Positions 4,176-23,429 are shown, numbered from the stretch's first letter. The stretch: DNA of 24,000 nucleotides from Pelagibacterium limicola (GCF_015694405.1 NZ_JADQDB010000005.1:589-24588); one strand, 5' to 3'. A program made the numbers and translations. Notes: generated by a model from the letters alone, not told the origin.

Positions 4176-4470
4176 GGGGGGCTCCGTCGATTGGACCGCG
4201 ACCATCGCGGCCTTCATGGCGACGAATCCCACAGGCCGGTCGGCCGGGCACCCGGAGCACAGCGCAGGGCCTGATGGCTAAGGCCGGCTATTTTGCCTCG
4301 CGATGGAAAGTGGCCTTCAGGCCGCGCCGGAAAATAGTCGGCCGCCGCCATTGCCGGCTGGCCGGCTTGTGGGCCGATCGCCCTCTCGAAGGCCGAGGCG
4401 CGGTCCTCCCAGACGGAATGACGCATCCCGAGGGGCACGATGGCGCCCGCCGCCACGTTCCTCGTGCCGG

Positions 4471-5502
4471 CTAGGCCGCCAGCGTCATGAAGCGTTGGAC
4501 GTCCTGCGGCCCGATCTGCATCCGGGTTCGGCTGCGCAGAGCTTCAAGGCCGAGGGTGCGCAGATCCTCGTTGAAGTCGCCCAGTTGAGGCGAGATGACG
4601 ATCGCCTCTATCCCGGCTTCGTTTGCCCGTGCGACCAGACTGTCCCGTGCGACATCGCCGGCCGGATCGTCGTCGCGCAGGATGTAGAGCCGGCGCAGCG
4701 TGTCCGGGAACAGGACGGCAGCGAGATGCGCTGCCGAGAGCGCCGCCATCATCGGCATGTCGGGCAAGACCTGGCGGACCGACAAGACGGTCTCGATGCC
4801 TTCGCCGGCCGCCATGACCTCGCCGCCGATGCTGAAGCGGACCGCATTTCCGAGAAGGTCGCCCATTGCCCGACGCGGCGTGTCGAGTGGCGCCTTGTCT
4901 CGTCGTCCCGGATCGAGCCAGGTTCGATGCGCTCCGGTGATTCTGCCGTCGACGCCGGTGACCGCGGCGATCATGGCCGGCCAGGTCTCGGTCGGCGAAT
5001 GCTCGTCCGGCCGATAGTAGCAGCGCGGGTGGAAACGCAGATTTCCGGTTCCGCGCAAATCCGTAATCCCGCGTTTGCGGAGATACGATTCTACGAGCGT
5101 GCCCGTGATCGGCCGCGCCATGGCGAACAGGCGGCGGGCGGCCTCGGGTGAGCCATGCGGCGCCGGGGCCTCACGCATAGCGGTCGGTCTCGGCTCGGGT
5201 GGCGGCATGCTGAGGAAGGATCGGGCCTCGTCGGCAACGTCCTTGAAGTCGGCGAGACCACAGCTTTGCCGGATGACGTCGAGCAGATCGCCGTGCTCTC
5301 CGGTGGCGGCGTCGGTCCACTTGCCAGCAGACCCTTTCGGCGAGTCCTTGAGCCGGACAAACATCGAGCGGCCCGACGTGTTACGCACGTCCCCTACAAG
5401 CCAGTAGCTTCCGTGGCGGCGACCGTTCGACAGATAGTGGCGGCAAACCGCCTCGGCTCGGTCGGCGAGGCGGCGTGAGAGGCTGTGCGGCGAGTCCGCC
5501 AT
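4471..5502 (-). CDS. toprim-domain (DUF7146-type, primase-like) protein of ICE backbones
   Basis: The N-terminus AVCRHYLSNGRRHGSYWLVGDVRNTSGRSMFVRL and a C-terminal toprim-like region (GEGIETVLS...YILRDDDPAG) fit the family. The start is placed at ATG 5502 (MADSPHSL), preceded by GAGGAG. The track ORF extends to 5571. Confidence 0.75.
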   Translation of the reverse strand: MADSPHSLSRRLADRAEAVCRHYLSNGRRHGSYWLVGDVRNTSGRSMFVRLKDSPKGSAGKWTDAATGEHGDLLDVIRQSCGLADFKDVADEARSFLSMPPPEPRPTAMREAPAPHGSPEAARRLFAMARPITGTLVESYLRKRGITDLRGTGNLRFHPRCYYRPDEHSPTETWPAMIAAVTGVDGRITGAHRTWLDPGRRDKAPLDTPRRAMGDLLGNAVRFSIGGEVMAAGEGIETVLSVRQVLPDMPMMAALSAAHLAAVLFPDTLRRLYILRDDDPAGDVARDSLVARANEAGIEAIVISPQLGDFNEDLRTLGLEALRSRTRMQIGPQDVQRFMTLAA

Positions 5503-5514
5503 GATGTGCTCCTC

Positions 5515-5545
5515 AAAAAAGAAGGCCCGCCGTTGCCGGCGGGCC
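5515..5545 (-). terminator. intrinsic terminator between the ParB-like gene and the toprim gene
   Basis: A perfect 9-bp GC stem (5524-5532 ggcccgccg / 5537-5545 cggcgggcc) with a 4-nt loop. On the minus-strand transcript it is followed directly by UUCUUUUUU (5515-5523). Confidence 0.7.
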
Positions 5546-5567
5546 CAGTCATACAAGTCGTTGACGT

Positions 5568-11081: not shown

Positions 11082-13060
11082 TCGCGCCTCAGGCTTTTCG
11101 CGATGTGGGCGAGCAACTCGGCTAATACTGGCGGCATGTCGGCCTTGAGAGCGCCATTCTTGATGTGGGTTAGCGCGGCAAGGTGCGTCGCCGGCTTGCT
11201 GTGCGTGAGGAAGTGGTAGCGGTAATCGGGGAAGAGAGGCGGATGGTCTTTATAGGGACCGGTGTAAAGAGTCAGGCCGGGGCCTTTGGCCCCCAGAACG
11301 GCCTTGGCCGCGTCATCGGGTTCCATACGCGGGCCGCCGCCGGCGGGGATCGTCGCTTCATAGGCAGCCGGGAATGCTGCAAGCATCGCGAGGTCCAGAT
11401 CTAGCGGTTCGGAGAAGTAGACCCCGTATTTCTTCAGGCAGTTGATCCAGCCGCGGAGAATCTTGCGGTCTTCCTCATCCTGCCAGGTGTGCATCTTGGC
11501 GAAGTCGGCGTCGGACAGGACACCCTTGTCGAGCTTGAGCAGTTCCTGCTTTGGCGCGCCGAACTCGACGAGATTCTCGATAGCCGTTTTGATGCGGCCG
11601 AACCCCCCTCCTGCCCGGCCTAGATCGAGGTCGATTAGGGTGGCGTAGGGGATTTCAAGCTGAGCGAGCAGCCGCCAAAAGTGCTGCACATGGCGCCCGC
11701 CAAGCGGAACAATCGCGACAAAGGCCGGATCGATCAAGAGATCGAGCGCCTCGGCCAGGCGCGGCAGCACCACACGTTCGGAGTCGCCTTCGACCAGAAG
11801 AACGAAGCGCGCGAAATAGAGCTCGGGGAATGCGAGCATCCCGCCGCGGACGAACTTCGCCTCCTCACCGATGCCCTTCGGCAACTTGATCTTCTTGATC
11901 GTAGAGATACGCGTGGTGGGATTGCTGCGGCAATAGCGCACCTCGCGCGGCTCGACCCGGCTGAGTACCGCGGGCGAGTGGCTTGTCACGAGCGCCTGGG
12001 CGCCTCCATCTTCGGTTAGCGATCGAACCTGATTCAAGATGCGCGCGAGGAAATACGGCGACAGGTGATTTTCCGGCTCTTCCAGAGCGAAGATCGACAG
12101 GGCCGGGATTCGCAGCTGATCTTTGTGAAAGCCTTCGACTTTGCCGGTGACCACCTGGCGTTCCATGTCGAATACGGCGGCGGCAAGTGCGAAATAGAAG
12201 AGCGACTGCTGGCCGTCACTGAGACCGTCGAGTCCCCGCTCTTGCCCGTCGGGTCCCTGCTCAAAGATGACCGCAATCCTGCTGACTACTTCCTCGAAGC
12301 GGCGGCCAACCAAGCTGAGGCGGGGCTTAGTGTCGACAACCTCGTCATGGAGGGACGACCAGCGTGCCTGGAGCGCCTTGCCGATCGCCGCAATCGCCCT
12401 CTCGCCCTCGAAGGCTTCGGTCAACGCCTCCGCTGCCTCGTCGACGCTGTCGCGAGCATTGTCGGACCATTCAATTGCGCGCAGAAGGCGAGCGGCAAGC
12501 GCGCCGGTTGTCGCGCGCACCTGCGCGCTCGCGTCTCGGCTCGCCGGCGTATAATAGAGCTGGATGAGCCCGCGGTCCGCGGGCGGCACCGGGTGCTTTT
12601 TGGCGTCCGCCGGCGAGTCGTCGAGCGTATCAACCCAATAAAGGTCTTGGGACACTTCGCCTTCGACCGTGCTGTCGTCTTCCCAGCGCGCCTCCAGCCG
12701 CATGCGGCACACCGGCGGCTTGTCTTCGCGGGCGATGAGCATGTGCCGAAAGGATGGTGCGACGGTCTCAGGCGTGGCGGTTCCATCGGCCAGTTCGGGT
12801 AGCGCGATCAGCACGTCGATGACCAGATCCTTCGCCAAGCGGTCATCTGGATCAGCGTCCGCAGCCAAATGAAAATCGGAGCGATGGATCGTGCGCTCGG
12901 CGCGGCTAACGCCAAAGACCTTGGAGAGCGCCTTGAGTAGAGCTGTCTTGCCGGCCGCGTTGGAGCCGACGATGGCGGTGACCTCGGGGCTGAAGGGAAC
13001 CTTGAGCGGGTCGGGACCGAAGCAGCGGAAGCCGGAGATGGTGACGCTTTCGAGACGCAA
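11078..13060 (-). CDS. OLD-family ATP-dependent endonuclease (ABC-type ATPase plus TOPRIM; class-2 OLD / GajA-like)
   Basis: The N-terminus MRLESVTISGFRCF...GSNAAGKTALL provides Walker A. Also present are FALEEPENHL (Walker B), TSHSP, and a TOPRIM with LLVEGDSERVVLP and LIDLDLG. TTG start. Confidence 0.9.
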   Translation of the reverse strand: MRLESVTISGFRCFGPDPLKVPFSPEVTAIVGSNAAGKTALLKALSKVFGVSRAERTIHRSDFHLAADADPDDRLAKDLVIDVLIALPELADGTATPETVAPSFRHMLIAREDKPPVCRMRLEARWEDDSTVEGEVSQDLYWVDTLDDSPADAKKHPVPPADRGLIQLYYTPASRDASAQVRATTGALAARLLRAIEWSDNARDSVDEAAEALTEAFEGERAIAAIGKALQARWSSLHDEVVDTKPRLSLVGRRFEEVVSRIAVIFEQGPDGQERGLDGLSDGQQSLFYFALAAAVFDMERQVVTGKVEGFHKDQLRIPALSIFALEEPENHLSPYFLARILNQVRSLTEDGGAQALVTSHSPAVLSRVEPREVRYCRSNPTTRISTIKKIKLPKGIGEEAKFVRGGMLAFPELYFARFVLLVEGDSERVVLPRLAEALDLLIDPAFVAIVPLGGRHVQHFWRLLAQLEIPYATLIDLDLGRAGGGFGRIKTAIENLVEFGAPKQELLKLDKGVLSDADFAKMHTWQDEEDRKILRGWINCLKKYGVYFSEPLDLDLAMLAAFPAAYEATIPAGGGPRMEPDDAAKAVLGAKGPGLTLYTGPYKDHPPLFPDYRYHFLTHSKPATHLAALTHIKNGALKADMPPVLAELLAHIAKSLRRD

Positions 13061-13085: not shown

Positions 13086-14267
13086 TCAGGTGGCTGGGAG
13101 CGGATCGGTGCCTTCGCTGAGGATGGCGAGATAGCGGCGATACCCAAAGACGCGGCCGCGGCGCCGGCCAGTCACTTCATCGACGATGCCGAGGCGCTGC
13201 AAGTCAGTGAGAGCGGCGTTCACCGTAGGTGCCGACAGCCCGGTCCGCTCGACGAGCTGATTGCTGGTTACGTAGGGGTTTTGCTGCATCAGGTCGTGTA
13301 TGCGTAGAGCCGAGCCGGCGCGCTCGCTCTCGGCGGTGATGCGTTCGCGATCTTGCTTGAATAGATTTACGATACGGGTCGCGGCGTCGAAGGCCTGGTT
13401 GGCGGTCTCCGCGACTCCATCGAGGAAAAATTCCAGCCAGGCCTCCCAAGAACCATGCTCGCGGACTTCCTGGAGGAGCCGGTAGTAGTCTGCGCGGCGC
13501 GTTTTCAGATAGAGGCTGAGGTAGAGTAGCGGCTTGCGCAGCACGCCATGGACGCAAAGGTAAAGAGTTACCAGCAGTCGCCCGATGCGTCCGTTACCGT
13601 CAAGAAACGGGTGAATCGTCTCGAACTGGACGTGAAGGAGCCCCGCCTTGATGAGCGCCGGCAGCCTTGAGTGGTCCTCGTGCATGAAGGCTTCCAGAGC
13701 ACCGAGGCTCGCGTCGAGCTCAGTGACAGGTGGCGGGACGAATAGGGCGTTTCCCGGTCGGCTGCCGCCGATCCAGTTCTGAGAGCGCCGGAATTCCCCT
13801 GGGTGCTTGGTACCGCCGCGCCCACTCTGCAGGAGCCGGGCGTGCATCTCCCGGATGAGGCGGAGCGATAGCGGCAGCTCGTTGAGGCGTTCGAGCCCGA
13901 ACATCATCGCGTCGACGTAGTTCGAGACCTCGCGGATGTCGTCGATCGGCTCACCGGCCTGAGCCTCGGTTTCGAAACGGAGGAGATCGGAGAGAGTCGA
14001 TTGGGTGCCCTCGATCTGGGACGAGAGGACCGCCTCCTTGCGAACGTACATGTAGAGGAACAGCTCCTGGCGGGGCAGGAGCATGGTGATGCCGTCGAGG
14101 CGTCCCAACGCGCGCTCGGCGACGCTTAGGCGGTCGAGCAGCGAGAGAACATCGATTGGTGGAACGGGCGGGAGCGGGGGCGGCACAAAGGCGCGGACGA
14201 TCTCGCCCGCGACGGGAGTCTCGATAAAGCGGCCAAGACGGCTATCGTTGGTTGAAGTGTCAGCCAT
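13086..14267 (-). CDS. Fic-family protein (class II, N-terminal inhibitory helix, C-terminal winged-helix-like region)
   Basis: The Fic motif HPFLDGNGRIGR (residues 219-230, nt 13578-13613) is intact. An SxxxEG inhibitory motif (S82-SQI-E86-G87) lies upstream of the core. Confidence 0.9.
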   Translation of the reverse strand: MADTSTNDSRLGRFIETPVAGEIVRAFVPPPLPPVPPIDVLSLLDRLSVAERALGRLDGITMLLPRQELFLYMYVRKEAVLSSQIEGTQSTLSDLLRFETEAQAGEPIDDIREVSNYVDAMMFGLERLNELPLSLRLIREMHARLLQSGRGGTKHPGEFRRSQNWIGGSRPGNALFVPPPVTELDASLGALEAFMHEDHSRLPALIKAGLLHVQFETIHPFLDGNGRIGRLLVTLYLCVHGVLRKPLLYLSLYLKTRRADYYRLLQEVREHGSWEAWLEFFLDGVAETANQAFDAATRIVNLFKQDRERITAESERAGSALRIHDLMQQNPYVTSNQLVERTGLSAPTVNAALTDLQRLGIVDEVTGRRRGRVFGYRRYLAILSEGTDPLPAT

Positions 14268-14365: not shown

Positions 14366-15004
14366 GTGTCCGGCTATACACAAAGGGTTCGGGACAGCAT
14401 TCTGCCGCGCTCGGTCGCCGGCACCCTCCCGGCTGCCTTTGCGGAGTGGACGTTCACCGAGAATACGATCGACCATGAAGCGACGATCGAGATCTGCGAA
14501 CTCTGCGGCCAGCAAGATCTTCGATATCATTTCGAGATTGCGAACCGTTACACAAAAGCGACGCTATGGGTAGGATCCCACTGCATTCTCCAGTTCGGCG
14601 TCGCGGTACTCGAAGATGGCCGGCAGCTGTCATCGGATGAGGCCAGGCGCCGGCTTGCGAAGCTGACGCAGCAGATGCAACTCCAGGGCTGCGTCAAGGC
14701 CTTGGAGCGCCTCGCTGCCGCCGAGGCCAACCCCATCCTGACCGGCGCGCTCGACTACTACCGACGCAACAAGAAGCTCACGCCGAAATATGCTGCGGTC
14801 GTGTTCTGGAAACTCCAGAGCTTCGGCATTGATCATCATCCCTCCTTCTTCCAGGTCGAGTTGCGGCGCGCGCAACACATTGAGGACCTGCGTCAGATGC
14901 CCACCGGCCGGGTGCATCGGTTCTGGGGCGCGCTCAGCCCGGCTCAGCGCCGCAAAGCTATTGAGCTTGGTCATCGCCCCCCAGCTCGCAGGAGCACGGC
15001 ATGA
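14366..15004 (+). CDS. hypothetical protein (212 aa) with a CxxC...HC putative zinc site
   Basis: The GTG start has AAGGAGG 8 nt upstream. Third codon positions favour G/C. C44-x2-C47 and H72-C73 are present. No family recognised. Confidence 0.6.
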   Translation: MSGYTQRVRDSILPRSVAGTLPAAFAEWTFTENTIDHEATIEICELCGQQDLRYHFEIANRYTKATLWVGSHCILQFGVAVLEDGRQLSSDEARRRLAKLTQQMQLQGCVKALERLAAAEANPILTGALDYYRRNKKLTPKYAAVVFWKLQSFGIDHHPSFFQVELRRAQHIEDLRQMPTGRVHRFWGALSPAQRRKAIELGHRPPARRSTA

Positions 15005-15777
15005 TCAATCTCCACGAACGATTGTCGGAGTTTTCCTATGGCTATGGCGTCACGCGCGAGATGGAGCGTCGGCTCGCCACTGCCGGTGTTCGCGCGACAC
15101 CGTTCCTGCCGAGTCTGCTGCATGAAGCGAGTTTGGGCTTTGATGTCGCCTTCTCTGGCCCTGGCCAGGTCGTCATGTTGCAATTCAAGTTGGGGCAGCA
15201 GTTGTCGCGGTTTCGGCGTCTCAGCCCGGCCGAGAGCATCCCGGTACTGCAGAAGCCATTCTGGCGCTACCACGTCGATCTTGATGAACACCAGTTCCAG
15301 CGTCTGGAGGAGTTTGAGCAAGAGGGCGCGGACGTGTTCTATGTTGCGCCACGCTTCTCCAACTGGGCCGGTTACGAGAGGGCATTCCACGCGAGCGAAG
15401 TCCTGCGACGATCGTTGTTGCTTCGGCCTTCGCAGATTCGGCTAGGGGCGGCTGGCGCGCCGGGCGAGCATCGCATTGTCTATGATAGGGTGAGCCGATA
15501 CGTCTGTTCCGACCCTCGTGCCATTGACGAGGTGCGGCCGGAAGACGCGGTCGAAAAGACGGCCGCAAGAGCACGCGAGCCCGGTCCACCTCTTGCAGCT
15601 CAACTGGAGAGGCTTGTTACGCGAGAGAGAACCCGCGATCTACCGCGGTTGTCGCGACCTCGTCAGCGCGATCTTCGGTCACGGGCTCGCACCCCTGCGG
15701 ATGCCACGGCGGCTGAGATCGGGCTGGAGGCTTGGCTACAAGGAGCACAGGTCCTGTTCGTCACGCCCGTTGACTGA
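15001..15777 (+). CDS. hypothetical protein (258 aa), possible PD-(D/E)xK-like nuclease fold
   Basis: The ATG overlaps the upstream stop (ATGA), with AGGAG 7 nt upstream. Residues E10, then GFD48VAF, then MLQ61FK63 resemble an E...D...(E/Q)xK layout. The C-terminal ~80 aa are R/P/A-rich. Confidence 0.55.
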   Translation: MINLHERLSEFSYGYGVTREMERRLATAGVRATPFLPSLLHEASLGFDVAFSGPGQVVMLQFKLGQQLSRFRRLSPAESIPVLQKPFWRYHVDLDEHQFQRLEEFEQEGADVFYVAPRFSNWAGYERAFHASEVLRRSLLLRPSQIRLGAAGAPGEHRIVYDRVSRYVCSDPRAIDEVRPEDAVEKTAARAREPGPPLAAQLERLVTRERTRDLPRLSRPRQRDLRSRARTPADATAAEIGLEAWLQGAQVLFVTPVD

Positions 15778-15870: not shown

Positions 15871-15998
15871 TTCCCCGAGGGCGAAGGTAAAGGCTTACTC
15901 AGCAGAGTTACGGACACCGAATTTGCTCGAGTGAGGATGCCGCGCATGCTATGTTCTCACGACGATATCGCCCTCTGTCGACGACCGGACCAGTTCAT

Positions 15999-17240
15999 AT
16001 GTATTTGAAATCGATCCTCGACGTAGAAGCTCCTCCGCCTGGAGTTGAGGTTGATGCACGGTGCGTACCAACAGGATCGTCACCAGAACAGTTAACGGTA
16101 GCTGGGCTGTTCGCGGGAATTGGCGGACTTGAGCAAGGATTTCATAATGAGGGCCATCGCAGCGTACTGCTCTGCGATGCTGATCCGCGCGCCCGCGACG
16201 TGCTCGCGCTACGCTTTCCGAGAGCCGCATTGTCGGAGGATGTTCGGGCGTTGAAAGCGCTGCCGGCTTGCGACGTCCTCACCGCAGGATTCCCCTGCCA
16301 AGATCTGAGCCAGGTCGGGCGTCGAAAGGGCATCTCGGGACCGAACTCCGGTCTCATCGACGTTGTACTCGACCTTCTCGCCAAGGCGAGACCCGGGCCG
16401 ACCTGGCTCGTCCTTGAAAACGTTCCTTTCATGCTGAGCCTTGATGGTGGCCGCGCGATCGATCGGATCGTCACCTCACTTGAGGAGATGGGGTTCGCCT
16501 GGGCCTATCGGACTGTCGATGCGCGGGCGTTCGGGCTCCCGCAACGTCGCCGTCGCGTTGTAATCCTGGCATCACGAGCAAAGGATCCTCGCCCCGCGCT
16601 GCTCGGCGTCGATGCCGCTGCGCCGAAGCCGACAAAGCGCGGGGTCCACGCTTGCGGCTTCTATTGGACGGAAGGCAATACCGGCCTTGGGTGGGCGATC
16701 GATGCGACGCCACCCCTTAAAGGCGGATCGGCGCTGCACATTCCCTCGCCACCCGCAATCTGGTTTCCCCAACGGCGACTTATCGGTGTGCCGTCGATCG
16801 AGGATGCCGAGCGCTTGCAAGGATTCGAGGCCGGCTGGACGCACATCCCGGGCGAAGATGTCCGCCAGACTCGCCAACGTTGGCGGCTGGTCGGCAACGC
16901 GGTCAGCGTACCATTCGCTAGCTGGATCGCCCGGCGGCTGACGGCCGACGCGGACTATGACGGCGACGGTGATCCGGATATCGTCGCAGGAGCCCGATGG
17001 CCGAGCGCCGCCTGGGGCATGGATGGCCGCAGAGGCCTTGCCTCGGTGTCGGAATGGCCCGAGGTGGCTGTGCAACAGCATCTGGCGACATTCCTTACGC
17101 GTAGCGTGATGCCATTGTCCCGCAAGGCGACCGCCGGGTTCCTTTCCCGCCTTGAGCAGAGCACGTTGCGATACGAGGAGGCTTTTCGCCTCGATTTGCG
17201 GCACCATATCGAGATGCATGACGCGGCCGACACGCCCTGA
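15999..17240 (+). CDS. DNA (cytosine-5)-methyltransferase
   Basis: Motifs seen: I FAGIGG, IV GFPCQDLS (Cys codon 16296-16298), VI ENV, VIII QRRRRV and X GNAV. The start is uncertain, either ATG 15999 or ATG 15951. Confidence 0.9.
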   Translation: MYLKSILDVEAPPPGVEVDARCVPTGSSPEQLTVAGLFAGIGGLEQGFHNEGHRSVLLCDADPRARDVLALRFPRAALSEDVRALKALPACDVLTAGFPCQDLSQVGRRKGISGPNSGLIDVVLDLLAKARPGPTWLVLENVPFMLSLDGGRAIDRIVTSLEEMGFAWAYRTVDARAFGLPQRRRRVVILASRAKDPRPALLGVDAAAPKPTKRGVHACGFYWTEGNTGLGWAIDATPPLKGGSALHIPSPPAIWFPQRRLIGVPSIEDAERLQGFEAGWTHIPGEDVRQTRQRWRLVGNAVSVPFASWIARRLTADADYDGDGDPDIVAGARWPSAAWGMDGRRGLASVSEWPEVAVQQHLATFLTRSVMPLSRKATAGFLSRLEQSTLRYEEAFRLDLRHHIEMHDAADTP

Positions 17241-17661
17241 TCCGATCGCCGCTACGACCACCAAACGAATGGCGGCAACGACGGGACGCGATAATCCGCG
17301 TGAACGGGCGCTGCGATCCGCGCTGCACTGTCGTGGCCTGCGGTTCAGGCTGCATCGACGGCTGCTGACCAATTCGCGGCGAACGGTCGATATCGTCTTC
17401 CCGCGCGCCCGGCTCGCCGTCTTCCTCGACGGCTGCTTTTGGCATGGATGCCCGTCGCACGGCACTTGGCCCAAGAACAACGCCGAGTGGTGGCGGGAGA
17501 AGATCGAGACCAATGTCGCGCGCGATCGCGACACGGATCGTCGTCTGGAGGCGCTGGGCTGGACGGTGATGCGTATCTGGGAACACGAGCCGATCGAGGA
17601 CGCCGCCGATCGGCTCGGGCATTGGCTGCGCCGCATTCAAACCGAGAACACTCGCGCCTGA
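17218..17661 (+). CDS. vsr: very-short-patch repair endonuclease
   Basis: VFLDGCFWHGCP, NAEWWREKI and GWTVMRIWEHE are Vsr hallmarks. The ATG at 17218 gives 147 aa and overlaps the methyltransferase 3' end by 23 nt in another frame. Confidence 0.9.
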   Translation: MTRPTRPDPIAATTTKRMAATTGRDNPRERALRSALHCRGLRFRLHRRLLTNSRRTVDIVFPRARLAVFLDGCFWHGCPSHGTWPKNNAEWWREKIETNVARDRDTDRRLEALGWTVMRIWEHEPIEDAADRLGHWLRRIQTENTRA

Positions 17662-18983
17662 TCCTTGAGCGAGGTCCAGATGCGGCGGTGCGCTTCGAAA
17701 CCGGACCATGTGCCGTCCTCCGCGCCGGCGGCGACCGTGTCGCAGCCATGGACGTAATCGGCGATAACACCGCGAACCGCCTCGCGTGCGACGACCACGC
17801 AGCCGATCTGATGGCGGGACAGCGACACGCACCACCGGCCTGCTTCGAGATCGAAGGCGACCGGTCGCTCCGGGAGCGAGAGCGGGTGACGAACAACCGA
17901 GATCGGCAGCTGGAGGCCCTGCCATCGTTCGACCGTGTCGACGCGCAGCCCGCCGCGCCCGCGCTGCCGCAGGCGATCGGCGATGGCACCGCCCGACACG
18001 ACGTGGGGATCGATGCAGCCGACGTCGTCCTCGCGCAGCGCGCGCTCCCCGATCCATTCGCCCTGCCGGACCAGCACGCGATCGGCGACGTGCGCAATGA
18101 GCTCGGCCAACTCGAGATCGGCCTCCTGATGGGCGGGCGCACGGCCTGGTAAGGTCAGGGCTACGAGACTCCGCCCCGCAGCGATCGCATCGAGCGCATC
18201 GTCGATGCCGCGCTCGAGCCCGGAGACGGCGAAGCGCAACCGACGCTTGTTGGGGTCGACGACCGAGTCGAACGGCAGGTCGGGATAGAAAGATGCCTGA
18301 ACGAGGGCAGCGGTGTCCGGTAGCAAGCGGCGCGTCACGGGAAGCCCGAACACGGGCGTGCCGGGGAAGCGATCCAAGACATAGGCAGGGGCCGACCAGT
18401 GGATCTTGTGCGGCGCGGCCTCAAGGTTGGTCGTGTCGGCCGAGGTAACCGGATCGAGCTGCCCTGGATCGCCGACCATCAGCACGCGAGTGGCGAGGCT
18501 CGCGATCGGCATGAAGTCGGAAGCGGCCAATTGATAGGCTTCGTCCACGATCATCAGGTCGAATGTCCCGATCGGGAGCTGGTGCAGATAGGCGGCAAGG
18601 AGGTGGGCGTTGGTGACGATCACGCCTGGGCCGATGTTCAGGCCGGGCGCCCATCCGCTCGACGCCGTGATGCGGCCGATGAGGTCGACCGGCAGGACTC
18701 GATGCTTGGCATGAGCGAGTTCGGTGCGCGGAAAGCGATAGTCCAGCAAGCGGCGCGCCACGTCATAGAGCTGCGATACGCCTGGGGTGACGATGACCAC
18801 GCGCATGGCGGGACGCGCCACAGCAACCGCCGTGGCGCACTCGACGAGGAAGGTTTTGCCGGCACCGGGCGGCGACTTCACGATGGTGAGCGGCGCGGTG
18901 CCGAAGAGAGCATGATCGATCGCGGCATCGAGCACGCGGTCCGCGTCGTCTTGGCGCTGCCGAATGGCCGTGGTCATGGTCAT
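17637..18983 (-). CDS. SF1 helicase, compact Upf1/Dna2/RecD-like type (gene 4 of the four-gene operon)
   Basis: Motifs seen: SPPGAGKT, MIVDEAYQ, MVGDPGQL, TVERWQGLQ and VSLSRHQ. The ATG at 18983 overlaps the upstream stop (ATGA). The track ORF extends to 19073. Confidence 0.8.
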   Translation of the reverse strand: MTMTTAIRQRQDDADRVLDAAIDHALFGTAPLTIVKSPPGAGKTFLVECATAVAVARPAMRVVIVTPGVSQLYDVARRLLDYRFPRTELAHAKHRVLPVDLIGRITASSGWAPGLNIGPGVIVTNAHLLAAYLHQLPIGTFDLMIVDEAYQLAASDFMPIASLATRVLMVGDPGQLDPVTSADTTNLEAAPHKIHWSAPAYVLDRFPGTPVFGLPVTRRLLPDTAALVQASFYPDLPFDSVVDPNKRRLRFAVSGLERGIDDALDAIAAGRSLVALTLPGRAPAHQEADLELAELIAHVADRVLVRQGEWIGERALREDDVGCIDPHVVSGGAIADRLRQRGRGGLRVDTVERWQGLQLPISVVRHPLSLPERPVAFDLEAGRWCVSLSRHQIGCVVVAREAVRGVIADYVHGCDTVAAGAEDGTWSGFEAHRRIWTSLKDQARVFSV

Positions 18984-20380
18984 CGCCTCGCTGCGCGCGC
19001 AATCGCGAGCGCCGATTGGCCGGTCGAGGGGCGGGGTGGAATCGCAGGGGCCGCATCTCCGTAGAAGATCCAAGGCTGCCGATTCCTCGTCTCCTTCAGA
19101 GCCTTGTGATTCACGAAGGCATAGGCGTCGCGCAGCAGTTCGACGCGCGCGCCCACGGTGAGCACTCCGGTCTGGCGGACGCCTTCGGTGATCTCTATCG
19201 AGATGCGCGTGCCGCCGGCGGCGGTCGCGCCGAGCGCCCTCACGACGCCTTTCACCCCGCAGCCAACGATCTTGATCTTGTCGTCGAGCCGGAAGCGGAT
19301 GACGTTCTGGTCCGACTCCACGTCGATGTCGCAGGGCTTGAAGTTGCGGCGGGGTTGGCTGACGTTCGTGACCGTGCCAATCACGACACCGCCCGCTCGT
19401 ATGGCCTGTTCGCGCAGTGCCGGGTCATTCTCTAGGGCCGCGAGCTCCGCTTTGTCACGGCCGGCCTCGAGCGTGCCCAGCTCGGCGGCGAGCCGATGGG
19501 GCGCGCGGGCCGGGTAGAAACCGTTCTGCAGGTCGTATTCGACGCGCTTGGCCGAATCCTCGACCAGGCTGCCGAGGCCCGTCGCCGGCAATCCCAGGGC
19601 CAGGAAGGCGCCGCGCCCTTCGACCAACAGGTGCCATTCCCGAACAATCCAATGCCGCAATGTATCGGCGATCTGCGCTTGCAGCGCGTGCCGGCGTGCG
19701 CCTGCCGCGTTCTTGGCCTCCTTGCGCAGACGATCGATCCGGTCATCGATGGGTTGGTCCGGCGTGTTCGGGAGAATGCCCGACGCGGGCAGTCGGATGC
19801 GTTCGCGCGATTCGGTCAGGGGATCAGTCACGGTGGCATCGAACCAAGCCAGGATGGCGTCGAGGTGGCCCGCCTCGATCGGGGCCATGCCCGTGACGCA
19901 ATGGTCCTGCAGCAGGGCCGCCGCATCGGCAACGAGCTGCTGGCCCGGGACCATCGCTTCGCGCGCTATGATTCGACAGGTCTCGCCCATGCGCCGGATC
20001 TCATCGGGCGCATTCTCGTTGCGCCAATAACGATGGCCGAGCACGTCGAGCGCTTCGAGCGTGACGCCATGGGGAATCCAGACGCGCATCGCACTGGCGG
20101 TCGCAAGCGCCCGATCGACCGTCGCGTTGAGGAAATCGGCGAACGGGCACAGATCCCCCACGTCGCGGCCGATCGGGTCGAGCCGCACGACGATTTGAGG
20201 ATCGCGATCCAAGGTGCCGAACGCGATCGCCTGAATGTGCTCCTCGGTGACGATCTTGATCGTGGCAATGCCGATGGTGATCGCCGGATCGGGCGAGAGG
20301 CCACTCGACGTGCGCGTCGCGAGTGCGCGGCCGGTATACCGGGCGACCACGCGATTGATGGTATCCTCGAACGCGTTCAT
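18980..20380 (-). CDS. hypothetical protein, 466 aa (gene 3 of the four-gene operon)
   Basis: Third codon positions are strongly G/C over the whole ORF. ATGA overlaps occur at both ends. No motif recognised. The C-terminus looks beta-rich (IRFRLDDKIKIVGCGVKGVV...). Confidence 0.7.
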   Translation of the reverse strand: MNAFEDTINRVVARYTGRALATRTSSGLSPDPAITIGIATIKIVTEEHIQAIAFGTLDRDPQIVVRLDPIGRDVGDLCPFADFLNATVDRALATASAMRVWIPHGVTLEALDVLGHRYWRNENAPDEIRRMGETCRIIAREAMVPGQQLVADAAALLQDHCVTGMAPIEAGHLDAILAWFDATVTDPLTESRERIRLPASGILPNTPDQPIDDRIDRLRKEAKNAAGARRHALQAQIADTLRHWIVREWHLLVEGRGAFLALGLPATGLGSLVEDSAKRVEYDLQNGFYPARAPHRLAAELGTLEAGRDKAELAALENDPALREQAIRAGGVVIGTVTNVSQPRRNFKPCDIDVESDQNVIRFRLDDKIKIVGCGVKGVVRALGATAAGGTRISIEITEGVRQTGVLTVGARVELLRDAYAFVNHKALKETRNRQPWIFYGDAAPAIPPRPSTGQSALAIARAARR

Positions 20381-21426
20381 GCCGCTCTCCCCACTTCATG
20401 CTGGTCAGCGAGGGTCCGAAGCCGTTCGGCGACGATCCGTTCGTGCTCATCGGCCGGCGCTACAGCGCCCGTCAGGAGGCCGATGACCCGATCCATCGCT
20501 ATGTCACCGAGCACCTCGCCGGCGACATCACCCATGTCGGCGGCGCGCCCTGCCACGCGTTCGCGGCACCATTGCGCCATGACGCAGCTGGCCAGGCACG
20601 CATCCTGGAAATTGGGTTCGAGATCGGTGGCCACGGTATAAGGCGCCGCGCCGGCGCGCAGCATGTTGATACGTTCGCGATGACGCAGGAACGCCGCGAT
20701 ACCGATGCGAATGGCCTCGACCGCCCCGCCGAGATCCTCGATGCGCGGTGCATGGGGGCGCAGGCCGTTGGGCCGGGAGAAAATCAGCAAGCCCTTTGGG
20801 GCGACCAACATCGCTGGGTCGAGGCGATGATATTCGTGGCGAAGCGCCAGAACCTGCGCCCCGAGCTGGAGGCGGACGCGCGCAAGATCTCCCCGGGGGA
20901 CCTCATTTTCGCGAACGATGAACGATTTGAGATCGCCGGGCAGATAACAGCCCAGTTCCACCGACCAGACCAGCAGATCGGGCGCGATGAAGAAATAAGG
21001 CCGCGGGCCCGGGCTAGTCGGAATGAGCAGCTGCGGCTGGACGATGATGTGCGGTGCGGTCCCGCCACGGATGCTGTCGGTGAGGATCGCGCGCGTGATA
21101 TTGAGCCGTGCGATCCTCGCATCGTCCTTGCTGCCGGGGTGGTCGTCGGTGAGATTGCGCACCCGGACGTCGTCGGGATCGAGCCCGATAAGCGGGCTCA
21201 GCGTCTCGCGCAGCAGGCGAGCATCGCCGGCATACGCGTTGCTCTCGAACTGAGCGCCGCGGCGCTTGGATGATTGGCGTTCACCGAACTCGCGATCGTA
21301 GCGCTCGCCCACGACCTGCTCGTAGAAGCGCTTCTCCGAGCCCTCCTGCATGACCATGGCCCCGAGGATCTCGCATGTCGGGTTGCCAGCGAGACGGACT
21401 AGGGCGGTGCTGCCCTTAACGCTCAT
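20377..21426 (-). CDS. PD-(D/E)xK nuclease, Cas4/RecB-like with a possible Fe-S cysteine set (gene 2 of the four-gene operon)
   Basis: GAQFE (57-61), FFIAPD (145-150) and GDLK (164-167) are present. Cys18 plus C277-x3-C281-x5-C287 resemble the 1+3 cysteine pattern of Cas4/AddB/Dna2 nuclease domains. Confidence 0.65.
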   Translation of the reverse strand: MSVKGSTALVRLAGNPTCEILGAMVMQEGSEKRFYEQVVGERYDREFGERQSSKRRGAQFESNAYAGDARLLRETLSPLIGLDPDDVRVRNLTDDHPGSKDDARIARLNITRAILTDSIRGGTAPHIIVQPQLLIPTSPGPRPYFFIAPDLLVWSVELGCYLPGDLKSFIVRENEVPRGDLARVRLQLGAQVLALRHEYHRLDPAMLVAPKGLLIFSRPNGLRPHAPRIEDLGGAVEAIRIGIAAFLRHRERINMLRAGAAPYTVATDLEPNFQDACLASCVMAQWCRERVAGRAADMGDVAGEVLGDIAMDRVIGLLTGAVAPADEHERIVAERLRTLADQHEVGRAA

Positions 21427-22177
21427 CGGCGCTCACCCAGCCCGGCTTCGAGCCCGGCAGCGACACCAGCGGCGCCCGGGCTCCGAACAGAAGATCGCGT
21501 TCGGACAGGCGCGTGGCGAGCGTCTCGGCCGCTTCGATGCGGGTCCTCTCGTCCTCAGCACGATGGCGCCCGATCAGTTCCGCGATCGCCTTCAGCCATT
21601 CGTCATAGGGGAACATGCCGCGCTGCACTTGCAGGCCGGCGTCGCGCGCCTGGTCGGCCGCGACATAGTTCAAAGTCTCCGGGTTGGCGGCGACCAGCTC
21701 CTTGCGGTGCGCGGCACGCGCCAGGCGGATTGTCCAGGCTGCGCCCTCGAGAAAGAGCAGCCGCCCAGACATCGGCCCGATGATGCGGTTCTGGAGCGGC
21801 CAGTCCGACCGCGCCCAGAAGCGCTTCACCGCCTGCCCCTGATCATGGGTCAGGCAATGGCAGAGATAGACTGGCTTGGCCCGGGACGAGTCGAAGGACT
21901 TGGCCTCATCGTTGGAGAGCGTTCCGAAGCGGGTCGAAGGGATCGTGCGGTCCTGGAGTGGGCGCAGCACGTTCGCGATCAGAAGCGAGTTGAGCGGCAC
22001 CATGGCATCGCCCAGCAAGTCGAGGACGATCTCGCGGAGCGGCCGCCCGCCATCCGGCGTCCGCGGCCGGCTGCGTCGTTCGAGACGGGCACGATGCTCG
22101 CGCACCTCAAGGAGGCGGCGTTCGAGTTCAGCTTCCTCTGCGCGGAGACGGTCGAGATCGGTCGTATGTGCGTTCAT
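21416..22177 (-). CDS. hypothetical protein, 253 aa, N-terminal coiled-coil-like region (gene 1 of the four-gene operon)
   Basis: ATG 22177. The N-terminus is charged and heptad-like (DLDRLRAEEAELERRLLEVREHRARLERR). It overlaps gene 2 by 11 nt. No family recognised. Confidence 0.6.
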   Translation of the reverse strand: MNAHTTDLDRLRAEEAELERRLLEVREHRARLERRSRPRTPDGGRPLREIVLDLLGDAMVPLNSLLIANVLRPLQDRTIPSTRFGTLSNDEAKSFDSSRAKPVYLCHCLTHDQGQAVKRFWARSDWPLQNRIIGPMSGRLLFLEGAAWTIRLARAAHRKELVAANPETLNYVAADQARDAGLQVQRGMFPYDEWLKAIAELIGRHRAEDERTRIEAAETLATRLSERDLLFGARAPLVSLPGSKPGWVSADER

Positions 22178-22187
22178 GAGTCGTATC

Positions 22188-22227
22188 CTATAGAACTCTA
22201 TCGGACTTGTCTATAGGAAACTATCGG
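22188..22227 (-). promoter_or_regulatory. four phased CTAT(A/C)G motifs directly upstream of the four-gene operon (candidate operator/promoter)
   Basis: ctatag 22188, ctatcgg 22198, ctatag 22211 and ctatcgg 22221 are spaced 10, 13 and 10 bp apart. cctataga (22187-22194) and tctatagg (22210-22217) form an inverted repeat. The 59-nt gap is AT-rich. Confidence 0.45.
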
Positions 22228-22236
22228 GAAACTCCA

Positions 22237-23187
22237 TCAGGGAATGTAGACCGCACTGCGGTGGTGGTGGAAATAGGCTCTGCTCTCGTCCCGGAGTGGC
22301 CGTGGTGGCGGTCTCTGGACGGTGTGCATCCCGAGCTTGACCGCGTCCGTCTCCTGTAATTGGGAGGAAAAGAGCGCTCGACCATCGTCTTCGAACCCGA
22401 TCAGCCCCCGATCGAACAGGAAATCGGCGTGCGGCGCGAGCATCAGGCCATTGAACCCATCGAGACGTTCCGCGGCCGTGCCGCAAGCGCGCCATGGCTT
22501 GATATGGCTCGCGATCAGCAGATTGGGCTTGTCGATCCCCGTGATCCGGCAAATGGGCTCGACGTCGAGGACACGTTTGCGGAAGAGGCCCTGACCGCGC
22601 CGTGCACGGGTCAGCTGCTCGCGGACCGTTCGATCGATGGACGTGTCCTCAAGAATGCTTCGCTCGACGAGATCGTCCAGCGTCGTCGCGAAATCGGAGA
22701 TCGTCTTGGCCGGCGCCACGAGGAGATCGGCACGAGGCAACCTCGCGGCCTCAAGGACGAGATCGACGAGGGCGCGGTCGACCTCCGCCAGATAAGCCTT
22801 TTGATTGCCGTTCCCGGTCGTGGGTTGGATCGGCGAGTGCGTAGCGGGTAGGAGTGGCGCCAGCCGTGCGAGCATATCTTTGGGCCGGACGGCCAGGGCG
22901 GCGTCGAGCCACTCGACTGGGAGTAGCCATCCGACGGCATTCCAATAGGCACCGATCGAACCGAACTCCTCGGGCTTGGGAGCGCTGATCGCGAAGTCGG
23001 CGACGATCCCAATCCGACCCACTCTACCCTCGGCATAGGAGAGAACCAGATCGCCGGGTGCGGCAAGACGCATGTTGTCATAGAATCTGCTGCGGGCGCC
23101 GTTGGCCTCGGTCACGGGAGACCAGAGATAGCCGCCGGCGATTTCCTGGCGCATCGTCTGCGCATGATTGACCCACCAATATCGCAC
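22237..23187 (-). CDS. HNH endonuclease with an N-terminal PUA-like (EVE/ASCH-type) domain; putative modification-dependent (type IV-like) restriction enzyme
   Basis: The C-terminal HNH_2-type motif is ASH228IKPW...GFN246GLMLAPH253ADFLFDRG. The N-terminus MRYWWVNHAQT...GGYLWSP... is typical of PUA-like reader domains fused to nucleases. GTG start. Confidence 0.8.
   Translation of the reverse strand: MRYWWVNHAQTMRQEIAGGYLWSPVTEANGARSRFYDNMRLAAPGDLVLSYAEGRVGRIGIVADFAISAPKPEEFGSIGAYWNAVGWLLPVEWLDAALAVRPKDMLARLAPLLPATHSPIQPTTGNGNQKAYLAEVDRALVDLVLEAARLPRADLLVAPAKTISDFATTLDDLVERSILEDTSIDRTVREQLTRARRGQGLFRKRVLDVEPICRITGIDKPNLLIASHIKPWRACGTAAERLDGFNGLMLAPHADFLFDRGLIGFEDDGRALFSSQLQETDAVKLGMHTVQRPPPRPLRDESRAYFHHHRSAVYIP

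Positions 23188-23276: not shown

Positions 23277-23429
<153 letters not shown>

What the first reader, a model, noticed from the sequence alone, without database searches (positions are those of the whole stretch)
17637..22177. Unrecognised four-gene, translationally coupled nuclease-helicase operon: best candidate for a new defence system
Seen: four minus-strand ORFs (21416-22177, 20377-21426, 18980-20380, 17637-18983) are chained by 11-nt, ATGA and ATGA overlaps. All four favour G/C at third codon positions on that strand. Gene 2 carries PD-(D/E)xK motifs (GAQFE, FFIAPD, GDLK) plus Cys18 and C277-x3-C281-x5-C287. Gene 4 has SF1 helicase motifs I, II, III, V and VI (SPPGAGKT, MIVDEAYQ, MVGDPGQL, TVERWQGLQ, VSLSRHQ) in a compact ~450-aa format. 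Genes 1 (253 aa, coiled-coil N-terminus) and 3 (466 aa) have no motif I can place. Established: Dna2, AddB and Cas4 combine or use a RecB-type nuclease with a 1+3 cysteine Fe-S cluster, and Dna2 fuses it to an SF1B helicase. Inference: this looks like a Dna2/AddB-type machine split into separate polypeptides with two unknown partners. It sits between a methyltransferase/vsr pair and an HNH enzyme in a defence island. As far as I recall their compositions, it does not match Gabija, Hachiman, Nhi, Zorya, Druantia, DISARM, Wadjet, Shango, Azaca or Menshen. The HNH gene lies only 59 nt upstream on the same strand and could be a fifth member.
Basis: partly seen in the sequence, partly recalled or inferred. 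Interest (0 to 1): 0.85.

Follow-up and report, generated by a model that had tools for sequence, protein, structure and literature searches.

The report
Unnamed methylase-linked nuclease-helicase defence cassette
Four tightly coupled genes (an iron-sulfur-type nuclease, a helicase and two proteins of unknown fold) form a conserved, mobile, so far unnamed cassette that almost always travels with its own cytosine methylase and mismatch-repair gene, which makes it a strong candidate for a new restriction-modification-like phage defence system.

Summary
Four minus-strand genes (253, 349, 466 and 448 aa) overlap by 11, 4 and 4 nt, have GC3 of 0.77-0.81 and are conserved as a block in all but one of about 45 related loci.

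- **Gene 2** is predicted to be a RecB/Cas4-type PD-(D/E)xK nuclease. Its catalytic D/(D/E)xK residues and its 1+3 cysteines are conserved.
- **Gene 4** is a minimal SF1B helicase with all its motifs conserved.
- **Genes 1 and 3** match no Pfam, NCBIfam, PADLOC, PHROG or PDB entry. The gene 3 model is confident but has no global structural match.

1. The neighbouring Dcm methylase (usually with Vsr) is not just a neighbour. It lies convergently next to gene 4 in 22 of 27 informative loci, and it co-diverges with the four genes (Mantel r 0.90-0.94).
2. The operon has its own conserved promoter/operator. This is four CGATAR boxes ending about 10 nt before the gene 1 start codon.
3. The "HNH" gene is a full-length VcaM4I-type EVE-HNH Type IV enzyme. 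It is present in only about 40% of loci.

Distant four-gene relatives exist without any methylase.

My best reading is a new, untested, methylation-gated ATP-dependent nuclease-helicase (split Dna2-like) defence cassette. Confidence is about 0.5.

The parts
21416..22177 (-). Gene 1 (253 aa). It has a variable N-terminal coiled-coil helix and a conserved ~190-aa domain of unknown fold (hallmark RFGTLSxDE, C106-H107-C108). It is the first gene of the operon.
   Evidence: ORF. There is no Pfam, PADLOC, NCBIfam or PHROG hit. An exhaustive profile search found 338 clusters at 50% identity. PDB profile searches returned only coiled-coil noise. My winged-helix reading comes from inspecting the sequence and was not tested.
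20377..21426 (-). Gene 2 (349 aa). A RecB/Cas4-family PD-(D/E)xK nuclease with a predicted four-cysteine (iron-sulfur type) site: C18 plus C277-x3-C281-x5-C287.
   Evidence: The catalytic residues and cysteines are conserved. The AF2 model has pLDDT 87.9. The top 29 Foldseek PDB hits are all MGME1, Cas4, EXO5, ACE1, RecE, lambda exonuclease, AdnAB or RecBCD. No Pfam hit.
18980..20380 (-). Gene 3 (466 aa). Its parts are a conserved N-terminal alpha/beta domain (about residues 1-200, with invariant E46, R72, D73, D112, R117, T163, G164, E169), a long helical stalk (about 210-330) and a C-terminal beta-barrel (about 332-417). No family can be assigned.
   Evidence: The AF2 model has pLDDT 89.1 and pTM 0.84. 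It has no global PDB or BFVD match. Only local matches appear, attributed to the barrel/stalk part by hit type: Sen1/SETX, HerA and EF-Tu domain II, with E about 1e-3 and TM 0.17. No family hits. The N-terminal domain is the part kept in distant homologues.
17637..18983 (-). Gene 4 (448 aa). A minimal SF1B (Upf1/Dna2/RecD-like) helicase with Walker A K43 and motif II D147-E148.
   Evidence: Pfam AAA_11 (40.7 bits) and AAA_30 (39 bits) both exceed their cut-offs. The nearest solved chain is IGHMBP2, weakly. Motifs I, II, III, V and VI are conserved in 29 homologues.
22185..22226 (-). Conserved promoter/operator of the four-gene operon. It is two tandem CGATAG-N4-CTATAG units, that is four C[G/T]ATA[G/A] boxes spaced 10/13/10. 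Embedded in them are a -35-like TAGACA and a -10-like TAGGAT that ends 8 nt before the gene 1 ATG. No Shine-Dalgarno sequence is visible.
   Evidence: The pattern occurs only here in the window (0.36 expected). It occurs immediately upstream of gene 1 in 26 of 40 loci and nowhere else in them. The promoter scan is. Leaderless transcription and binding by gene 1 are inferences.
15951..17240 (+). Dcm-type C5 cytosine DNA methyltransferase (429 aa). It is the co-inherited modification partner, convergent to the operon.
   Evidence: Pfam DNA_methylase 2.5e-42 and PADLOC MTase_II 1.2e-126. An orthologue is convergent downstream of gene 4 in 22 of 27 informative loci. Mantel r is 0.90-0.94 against genes 2-4.
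17152..17661 (+). Vsr very-short-patch (T:G mismatch) endonuclease. Its 3' end overlaps the 3' end of gene 4 by 25 nt. The true start is uncertain.
   Evidence: Pfam Vsr 1.1e-13 and PADLOC Vsr 2.3e-17. It is present in 19 of 27 informative loci. It is missing or degenerate in L007, L017, L018 and L030, although Dcm is kept there.
22237..23187 (-). Facultative neighbour: a VcaM4I-family EVE-HNH modification-dependent (Type IV) restriction endonuclease (316 aa). It is not a subunit of the four-gene machine.
   Evidence: phmmer E 1e-73 over residues 1-284 to PDB 6YEX, which is VcaM4I (identity of 6YEX from PMC7897488). It has its own promoter-like site at 23244-23215. It is upstream of gene 1 in 11 of 28 informative loci.

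Best explanation
In this window and its whole clade, the unit is a mobile six-gene cassette that resembles a restriction-modification system.

**Modification arm.** One arm encodes a Dcm-type m5C methyltransferase that marks host DNA. It also encodes Vsr, which repairs the T:G mismatches that m5C deamination creates.

**Restriction arm.** The convergent arm is a separately transcribed, translationally coupled operon for an ATP-dependent nuclease-helicase machine.
- Gene 4 is the SF1B motor.
- Gene 2 is a Cas4/RecB-type nuclease with an iron-sulfur-type cysteine cluster.
- Gene 3 is a large scaffold. Its helical stalk and beta-barrel may supply, in trans, the accessory domains that the minimal helicase lacks. 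Its conserved N-terminal domain has an unknown role.
- Gene 1 is a coiled-coil protein with a conserved domain. I guess that it binds DNA and also represses the operon through the four CGATAR boxes at its own promoter.

**Proposed action.** DNA that lacks the Dcm mark is engaged, unwound and degraded, in the manner of Dna2 or AddAB.

**What is shown.** Gene order, coupling, conservation, the fold and catalytic residues of gene 2, the helicase motifs of gene 4, the co-inheritance with Dcm, and the conserved operator.

**What is inferred.** Complex formation, the Fe-S cluster, methylation sensitivity, the roles of genes 1 and 3, and the defence phenotype.
For: - The four genes overlap by 11, 4 and 4 nt. 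They stay together in every related locus that covers them, except L013, which lacks gene 1.
- Gene 2 has the RecB/Cas4 fold. Its D150, (D/E)165-x-K167, Q187 and 1+3 cysteines are conserved, even in very distant cassettes.
- Gene 4 passes the Pfam AAA_11 and AAA_30 cut-offs and keeps all SF1 motifs.
- An orthologous Dcm (53-88% identity) sits convergently, directly after gene 4, in 22 of 27 informative loci, with Vsr in 19. The 3' ends overlap, so there is no room for an unrelated insertion.
- Dcm distance matrices track those of genes 2-4 (Mantel r 0.90-0.94, p 0.0005). That is as tight as the four genes track each other (0.93-0.97).
- Two of the exceptions carry a different C5 methylase nearby: L011 (27% identity, with Vsr, 6 kb away) and L025 (31% identity, upstream).
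- The context is a defence island next to tRNA-Arg, with Gabija, SoFic and an EVE-HNH enzyme. In P. aeruginosa the cassette sits with an integrase gene and a NikA-like gene.
- A conserved repeat operator sits at the operon promoter. This fits the tight expression control typical of toxic restriction genes.
- There is a precedent: UvrD-Cas4 fusions have been found in Dcm+Vsr neighbourhoods and were predicted to be defence systems (PMC5704561).
Against: - No experiment exists. No component has been shown to read DNA sequence or methylation.
- Genuine but distant four-gene cassettes have no methylase within 4-8 kb: L013, L026, L046 and L048. The core machine can therefore apparently work, or at least persist, without a linked methylase.
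- Co-divergence with Dcm could simply reflect long physical linkage on the same mobile element.
- Genes 1 and 3, together 719 of the 1516 residues, have no assignable function.
- The similarity of the gene 3 barrel and stalk to Sen1/SETX is weak (E about 1e-3, TM 0.17).
- A 5mC/5hmC-dependent EVE-HNH enzyme next to an m5C methylase is awkward unless their specificities differ.
Confidence: 0.5

Rival explanations
1. The four genes are a methylation-independent nuclease-helicase defence system. It would sense DNA ends, single-stranded DNA or replication intermediates of invaders, in the way proposed for Gabija, Hachiman or Nhi. On this reading Dcm-Vsr is an independent orphan or epigenetic module that became fixed next to it on one mobile-element lineage.
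For: - Distant homologous cassettes lack any nearby methylase: L013, L026, L046 and L048.
- The closest structural relatives of gene 2 (MGME1, EXO5, Cas4, RecE, lambda exonuclease) are end- or ssDNA-processing enzymes, not sequence-specific endonucleases.
- No target-recognition domain was identified in any subunit.
Against: - Dcm is adjacent and convergent, with overlapping 3' ends, in 22 of 27 loci across divergence down to 43% identity.
- It co-diverges as tightly as the core genes do with one another.
- Where that Dcm is missing, a different C5 methylase is nearby in two lineages.
Confidence: 0.27
2. The cassette is not a defence system. It would be a DNA-processing, repair or recombination module of the mobile element. 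For example, the helicase and exonuclease could act after Vsr nicking in very-short-patch repair, or they could process ends for island or ICE maintenance.
For: - It is adjacent to Vsr.
- The nuclease family includes recombination and repair exonucleases.
- The distant cassette L046 lies in an ICE-like region with a TraG-type coupling protein, and RNase T-like and DNA ligase genes follow it.
- NikA-like and integrase genes are neighbours in P. aeruginosa.
Against: - Vsr is lost or degenerate in four loci that keep Dcm and the four genes.
- By established knowledge, E. coli VSP repair needs only Vsr, Pol I and ligase.
- The distribution is patchy, as accessory cargo in defence islands beside Gabija, SoFic and a Type IV enzyme.
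- There are no hits in plasmid or phage collections, where maintenance modules would be expected.
Confidence: 0.1
3. The HNH gene, the four genes and Dcm-Vsr form one seven-gene system with HNH as the effector.
For: - The HNH gene is on the same strand, with a 59-nt gap and no terminator-like site between it and gene 1.
- An HNH homologue lies immediately upstream in 11 of 28 informative loci, including the widespread P. aeruginosa version.
Against: - It is absent from about 60% of loci.
- It is a complete homologue of VcaM4I, a stand-alone NTP-independent Type IV enzyme (PMC7897488).
- The four-gene operon keeps its own conserved promoter/operator downstream of the HNH stop codon.
Confidence: 0.08

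Closest known systems
Dna2 and its bacterial relative Bad (fused Fe-S PD-(D/E)xK nuclease plus SF1B helicase; PMC7430649)
   Same: - The nuclease is RecB/Cas4-type with a 1+3 cysteine set.
- The motor is a Upf1/Dna2-like SF1B helicase (AAA_11/AAA_12).
- A stalk-plus-barrel accessory element may be present, here in gene 3 on weak fold evidence.
   Different: - Here the parts are three separate polypeptides, with a 466-aa gene between the nuclease and the helicase, plus a fourth protein.
- The cysteine spacing is CX3CX5C in this clade rather than CX2CX5C.
- The cassette is linked to a methylase on a mobile island, not a housekeeping replication or repair enzyme.
UvrD-Cas4 fusion proteins in Dcm+Vsr neighbourhoods (predicted defence; Hudaiberdiev et al. 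2017, PMC5704561)
   Same: A Cas4-family nuclease and an SF1 helicase are encoded next to a Dcm methylase and Vsr, and the arrangement was interpreted as restriction-like defence.
   Different: - That helicase is UvrD-like (SF1A) and fused to a pfam12705 nuclease.
- Here the helicase is SF1B and separate.
- Here the nuclease matches no Pfam model.
- Two further conserved proteins are obligatory here.
ATP-dependent restriction-modification systems with a separate C5 methylase (CglI/NgoAVII type) and the DISARM and BREX class
   Same: A methylase is paired with a multi-protein, helicase-containing restriction arm on a mobile island.
   Different: - There is no PLD nuclease, B3 domain, DrmA/DrmB, PglZ or other hallmark protein.
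- PADLOC models for these systems do not match genes 1-3.
- The features of the CglI/NgoAVII system are quoted from my own knowledge and were not tested here.
AddAB / AdnAB / RecBCD helicase-nucleases
   Same: The nuclease has the RecB fold with an iron-staple cysteine pattern and is coupled to SF1 motors. AdnAB and RecBCD appear among the fold hits.
   Different: - Those are large fused SF1A (or SF1A plus SF1B) housekeeping repair enzymes.
- There is no sequence-level match.
- The context here is defence-island cargo.

Membership tests
RecB/Cas4-family PD-(D/E)xK nuclease (gene 2) | Catalytic D ... (D/E)xK motif, plus the conserved Q of the QxxxY-like motif | tested here: met
   D150, K167 and Q187 are invariant, and D/E165 is at least 90% conserved, in 30 homologues. 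All are kept in the distant cassettes L011, L013, L045, L046 and L048.
RecB/Cas4-family PD-(D/E)xK nuclease (gene 2) | RecB-like nuclease fold | tested here: met
   The AF2 model has pLDDT 87.9. Foldseek PDB ranks 1-29 are all MGME1, Cas4 SSO0001, EXO5, ACE1, RecE, lambda exonuclease, Cas4-Cas1, AdnAB or RecBCD. The best E is 2.3e-4, and TM-scores are modest at 0.22-0.35.
RecB/Cas4-family PD-(D/E)xK nuclease (gene 2) | Match to the curated family models (Pfam Cas4/PDDEXK_1, or PDB sequences by profile) | tested here: not met
   No Pfam, NCBIfam, PADLOC or PHROG hit. The profile search against PDB sequences returned only noise.
Fe-S 'iron staple' nucleases (AddB, Cas4, Dna2, EXO5) | One N-terminal and three C-terminal cysteines flanking the nuclease core | tested here: met
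   C18 is at least 90% conserved, and C277, C281 and C287 are invariant. The spacing is CX3CX5C here and the canonical CX2CX5C in distant L046.
Fe-S 'iron staple' nucleases (AddB, Cas4, Dna2, EXO5) | A bound [4Fe-4S] cluster | not testable with these tools
   This needs UV-vis, EPR or iron analysis of purified protein.
SF1B helicase (Upf1/Dna2/RecD-like) (gene 4) | Helicase motifs I, II, III, V and VI, and family models above cut-off | tested here: met
   AAA_11 scores 40.7 bits and AAA_30 scores 39 bits, against a cut-off of 27 for each. The motifs are conserved in 29 sequences. The nearest solved chain is IGHMBP2, weakly at E 0.004.
SF1B helicase (Upf1/Dna2/RecD-like) (gene 4) | 5'-to-3' translocation polarity | not testable with these tools
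   This needs a biochemical unwinding assay.
Dna2 / Bad | Nuclease and helicase fused in one polypeptide | tested here: not met
   They are separate genes, with gene 3 between them, in all loci examined.
Restriction-modification system (generic) | A cognate methyltransferase genetically linked to, and co-inherited with, the nuclease arm | tested here: met
   22 of 27 informative loci have it. Mantel r is 0.90-0.94. This is not met in the distant cassettes L013, L026, L046 and L048.
Restriction-modification system (generic) | Cleavage is blocked by the cognate methylation, and the two arms share sequence specificity | not testable with these tools
   The recognition sequence of the Dcm is unknown, and no target-recognition domain was identified in genes 1-4.
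Named defence systems in PADLOC-DB 2.0 (Gabija, Hachiman, Nhi, Zorya, Druantia, DISARM, Mokosh, Hhe, MADS, PDC candidates and others) | HMM match of the component proteins | tested here: not met
   Genes 1-3 have zero hits. Gene 4 has only about 50-residue local hits, around helicase motifs II-III, to MkoA, MkoC and Hhe. NCBIfam release 20 behaves the same way.
VcaM4I-type EVE-HNH Type IV restriction enzymes (the upstream HNH gene) | Full-length similarity covering both the EVE and the HNH domains | tested here: met
   phmmer E 1e-73, aligning residues 1-284 to residues 1-278 of 6YEX. The 6YEX entry is VcaM4I. Pfam HNH_2 scores 4.9e-11.

The most novel reading that the evidence does not exclude
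This would be a previously unnamed class of ATP-dependent restriction-modification-like immunity. A Dna2-like Fe-S nuclease/SF1B helicase has been split into separate subunits. One new protein (gene 3) supplies the helicase's missing stalk and barrel in trans and carries a novel conserved domain. That domain, alone or with gene 1, reads the methylation state set by a co-evolving Dcm. Methylase-less relatives in other phyla would represent the ancestral, self-standing form of the same machine.
Probability: 0.35. Interest if true: 0.75.

Novelty: new variant of a known kind. Interest (0 to 1): 0.62.

Why it matters
If it is confirmed, this would add a new multi-subunit helicase-nuclease system to the catalogue of bacterial immunity.

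- **It is widespread.** It is present in hundreds of P. aeruginosa assemblies and in many soil and marine Proteobacteria. Current annotation tools call all of it 'hypothetical'.
- **It offers a natural experiment.** Methylase-linked and methylase-free versions of the same four-gene core exist, which could show how self/non-self discrimination is bolted onto a DNA-degrading motor.
- **It contains uncharted protein.** There are two protein families with no known fold relatives. One of them is a confidently predicted 466-aa protein.
- **It may contain a new regulatory element.** The repeat element at the promoter is conserved and may be a new kind of restriction-gene control element.

Tried and rejected
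**Searches of genes 1-3 that found nothing**
- Pfam, PADLOC, NCBIfam and PHROGs scans.
- Profile searches of all PDB sequences with alignments of gene 1 (narrow and broad), gene 2 and gene 3. These returned only noise: coiled coils, ribosomal L17 and a CBS domain.
- A Pfam scan of 57 distant gene 1 relatives, which found no shared domain.

**Structure searches**
- Foldseek of the gene 3 model against PDB and BFVD found no global match. Only local matches appeared, to proteins whose shared element is a beta-barrel.

**Other collections**
- tblastn of gene 3 against plasmid and phage collections found no match.
- Five literature searches found no description of this gene set.

**Ideas rejected**
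- HNH as a fifth subunit. It is facultative and is a known stand-alone enzyme type.
- A Type IV (modification-dependent) role for genes 1-4, given the co-inherited methylase.
- ORFs arising by chance in GC-rich DNA, given the protein-level conservation and the GC3 bias.

Full report
**1.

The four minus-strand ORFs are at exactly the stated coordinates. Reading the junctions shows an 11-nt overlap (ATGAGCGTTAA) and two ATGA overlaps. GC3 is 0.77-0.81, against GC2 of 0.47-0.49.

For gene 4 the mechanical ORF extends to a TTG at 19073. Homologues align from residue 2-5 of the ATG-18983 form, so that start is right.

Each protein has more than 100 homologous clusters, almost all called 'hypothetical'. 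Two of them are 100% identical to Pelagibacterium limicola proteins, which identifies the source of the window.

**2. What the four proteins are.**

*Gene 2.* It has no hit in Pfam, PADLOC, NCBIfam or PHROGs, nor in a profile search of PDB sequences.
- An alignment of 30 homologues down to 36% identity shows E61, D150, K167, Q187, C277, C281 and C287 invariant. D/E165 and C18 are at least 90% conserved.
- The AlphaFold2 model is confident (pLDDT 87.9, pTM 0.83).
- Its Foldseek hits in the PDB are a clean list of RecB/Cas4-type nucleases: MGME1 (E 2.3e-4), Cas4 SSO0001, EXO5, the Argonaute-associated Cas4 protein ACE1, RecE, lambda exonuclease, Cas4-Cas1 complexes, AdnAB and RecBCD. TM-scores are modest (0.22-0.35), because the protein carries extra helical regions.
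- The catalytic residues and the 1+3 cysteines survive in very distant cassettes. One of these has the canonical CX2CX5C spacing.
The cluster itself is untested.

*Gene 4.* It passes the Pfam cut-offs for AAA_11 and AAA_30. Its closest solved relative is the Upf1-like helicase IGHMBP2, weakly. All SF1 motifs are conserved in 29 homologues. At 448 aa it is essentially two RecA domains with no accessory domains.

*Gene 3.* It has no family hit anywhere.
- Its model is confident (pLDDT 89.1, pTM 0.84).
- The model shows an N-terminal alpha/beta domain, a long helical stalk and a C-terminal beta-barrel.
- Neither the PDB nor BFVD holds a global match. Only local matches appear, to the Sen1/SETX helicases, the HerA N-terminal barrel and EF-Tu domain II, at E about 1e-3 and TM 0.17. 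The hit tables give no query coordinates, so assigning these matches to the stalk and barrel rests on the kind of proteins hit.
- Stalk plus barrel is the accessory module of Upf1/Dna2-type helicases, and gene 4 lacks it. Supply in trans is an attractive idea, but the support is weak.
- The N-terminal domain is the part conserved in the most distant homologues, with E46, R72, D73, D112, R117, T163, G164 and E169 kept. Its function is unknown.

*Gene 1.* It has a variable N-terminal coiled coil and a conserved ~190-residue domain. Nothing in Pfam or the PDB resembles it, even with a broad 57-sequence profile. My reading of a winged-helix-like pattern is by eye only.

**3.

I fetched about 45 related loci from genomes, metagenomes and viral contigs.
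- Genes 1-4 always occur together and in the same order, except in L013, which lacks gene 1.
- In 22 of 27 loci with at least 1.5 kb of sequence beyond gene 4, an orthologue of the window's Dcm (53-88% identity) lies convergently right after gene 4. Vsr lies between them in 19.
- In the window the 3' ends of Vsr and gene 4 overlap by 25 nt.
- Pairwise distance matrices of Dcm correlate with those of genes 2, 3 and 4 at Mantel r 0.90-0.94. The four genes correlate with one another at 0.93-0.97.
- The methylase has therefore been inherited with the operon through divergence down to about 43% identity (L040).
- Two exceptions carry a different C5 methylase nearby: L011/L012 (with Vsr, 6 kb away) and L025 (upstream).
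- Some loci add an ArsR-type HTH gene in front of Dcm. The window does not.

**4. But the four-gene core is older than the methylase link.**

An exhaustive profile search with gene 1 found 338 clusters at 50% identity. Sampling their contexts gave four further loci.
- Three of them hold four-gene cassettes or parts of one: L045 (cut off within gene 3), L046 and L048. The gene 2, gene 3 and gene 4 homologues in L046 are significant: E 8e-18, 1.7e-10 and 1e-34.
- L046 and L048 have no methylase within 4-8 kb. L045 ends within gene 3, so it says nothing about a downstream methylase.
- L046 sits in an ICE-like region, and RNase T-like and ligase genes follow it.
- In the fourth locus, L047, a gene 1-like protein sits beside an SNF2 helicase and an N6/N4 methylase.
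- L013 and L026 also lack a nearby methylase.

This is the main evidence against a strict dependence on methylation.

**5. A conserved control element.**

Immediately upstream of gene 1 lie two tandem CGATAG-N4-CTATAG units (window 22188-22226).
- The pattern occurs nowhere else in the window (0.36 expected by chance).
- It occurs at the same place in 26 of 40 loci, and only there, whether or not an HNH gene lies upstream. It is inverted in the divergent clade.
- The promoter scan places a TAGACA-17-TAGGAT promoter inside it, ending 8 nt before the ATG. No Shine-Dalgarno sequence is visible.

I infer a self-contained, probably autoregulated and possibly leaderless operon, analogous to the C-box control of restriction genes. 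The binding protein is unknown. Gene 1 is my guess.

**6. The HNH gene.**

It is a full-length homologue (E 1e-73) of PDB 6YEX, the EVE-HNH modification-dependent enzyme VcaM4I. It has its own promoter-like site and is present in 11 of 28 informative loci. It is therefore a frequent companion Type IV enzyme, not a subunit.

Its coexistence with an m5C methylase is unexplained. The VcaM4I paper expects little sequence-context dependence for the EVE domain.

**7. Context.**

The window is a defence island next to tRNA-Arg(CCG). It contains:
- Gabija: GajA E 2.6e-242 and GajB E 1.5e-218;
- SoFic, E 2e-124;
- an unassigned two-gene pair;
- the cassette and the EVE-HNH gene.

In P. aeruginosa the same eight-gene arrangement lies with a phage-type integrase gene and a NikA-like gene about 1-5 kb upstream. 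The gene 2 protein there is indexed in 388 blocks of the collection. No copy was found in the plasmid or phage collections. Two copies are on IMG/VR contigs.

**8. Comparison and verdict.**

The machine works most like a Dna2/Bad or AddAB-type helicase-nuclease. However, it fails membership on the defining fusion and on every curated model.

The closest published idea is the UvrD-Cas4 fusion in Dcm+Vsr neighbourhoods (PMC5704561). That case uses a different helicase class and no extra subunits.

No PADLOC 2.0 or NCBIfam (June 2026) model, and no paper I could find, covers this gene set.

I rate it a new variant of a known kind: a methylase-linked helicase-nuclease defence system. It is real, widespread and untested.
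- The methylation-gated restriction mechanism is my best estimate (about 0.5).
- Methylation-independent defence is next (about 0.27).
- A repair or maintenance role comes after that (about 0.1).

Noticed in passing
window 22185-22226 (minus strand): Four C[G/T]ATA[G/A] boxes, arranged as two CGATAG-N4-CTATAG units, overlap a promoter-like TAGACA-17-TAGGAT that ends 8 nt before the gene 1 ATG. There is no Shine-Dalgarno sequence. The element is conserved at the same place in 26 of 40 related loci and is inverted in the divergent clade. It may be a new restriction-gene control element driving a leaderless transcript.
   Followed up: partly
window 22237-23187 (minus strand): The 'HNH enzyme' is a VcaM4I-family EVE-HNH endonuclease that depends on 5mC/5hmC (E 1e-73 to PDB 6YEX). 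It sits beside a C5 cytosine methylase in 11 of 28 informative related loci. How self-restriction is avoided is unexplained.
   Followed up: partly
window 14366-15004 and 15001-15777 (plus strand): Two coupled ORFs (212 and 258 aa, with an ATGA-type 4-nt overlap) lie between SoFic and Dcm. Neither has a Pfam, PADLOC or NCBIfam hit, and the 212-aa ORF has only borderline PHROG hits (E about 0.02). Neither has a homologue in any of the related loci. They may be another unassigned two-gene defence candidate.
   Followed up: no
window 9171-13060 (minus strand): A complete Gabija system. GajA is at 11078-13060 (PADLOC E 2.6e-242) and GajB at 9171-11081 (E 1.5e-218), overlapping by 4 nt. SoFic at 13086-14267 is adjacent.
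   Followed up: yes
window 23320-23396 (minus strand), and 3255-7679: tRNA-Arg(CCG) flanks the island, with a pseudouridine synthase fragment beyond it. Further left are genes typical of mobile elements: ParB_N-like (703 aa), DUF7146-Toprim and a YAcAr/SLOG-domain protein. This suggests an integrative element inserted at the tRNA. No integrase was identified among the ORFs I scanned.
   Followed up: no
L042-L044 15485-15811; also L001, L002, L006, L008, L015, L018: An ArsR-type HTH_20 gene (108 aa) lies directly upstream of Dcm and overlaps its start in a subset of the cassettes. It is absent from the window. It is probably a controller of the methylase arm.
   Followed up: partly
L047 331-8141: A gene 1-like protein (373 aa, E 4e-31) sits in a different neighbourhood: an SNF2 helicase, a 641-aa N6/N4 methylase and two unknown proteins. 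The gene 1 domain may be a shared module of several helicase and methylase systems.
   Followed up: no
L011 12844-14529; L013 13883-14470; L046 13274-16316: Divergent cassettes carry different extra genes right after the helicase. L011 has a 561-aa unknown protein. L013 has a GIY-YIG_2 nuclease. L046 has DUF6218, an RNase T-like exonuclease and a DNA ligase.
   Followed up: no
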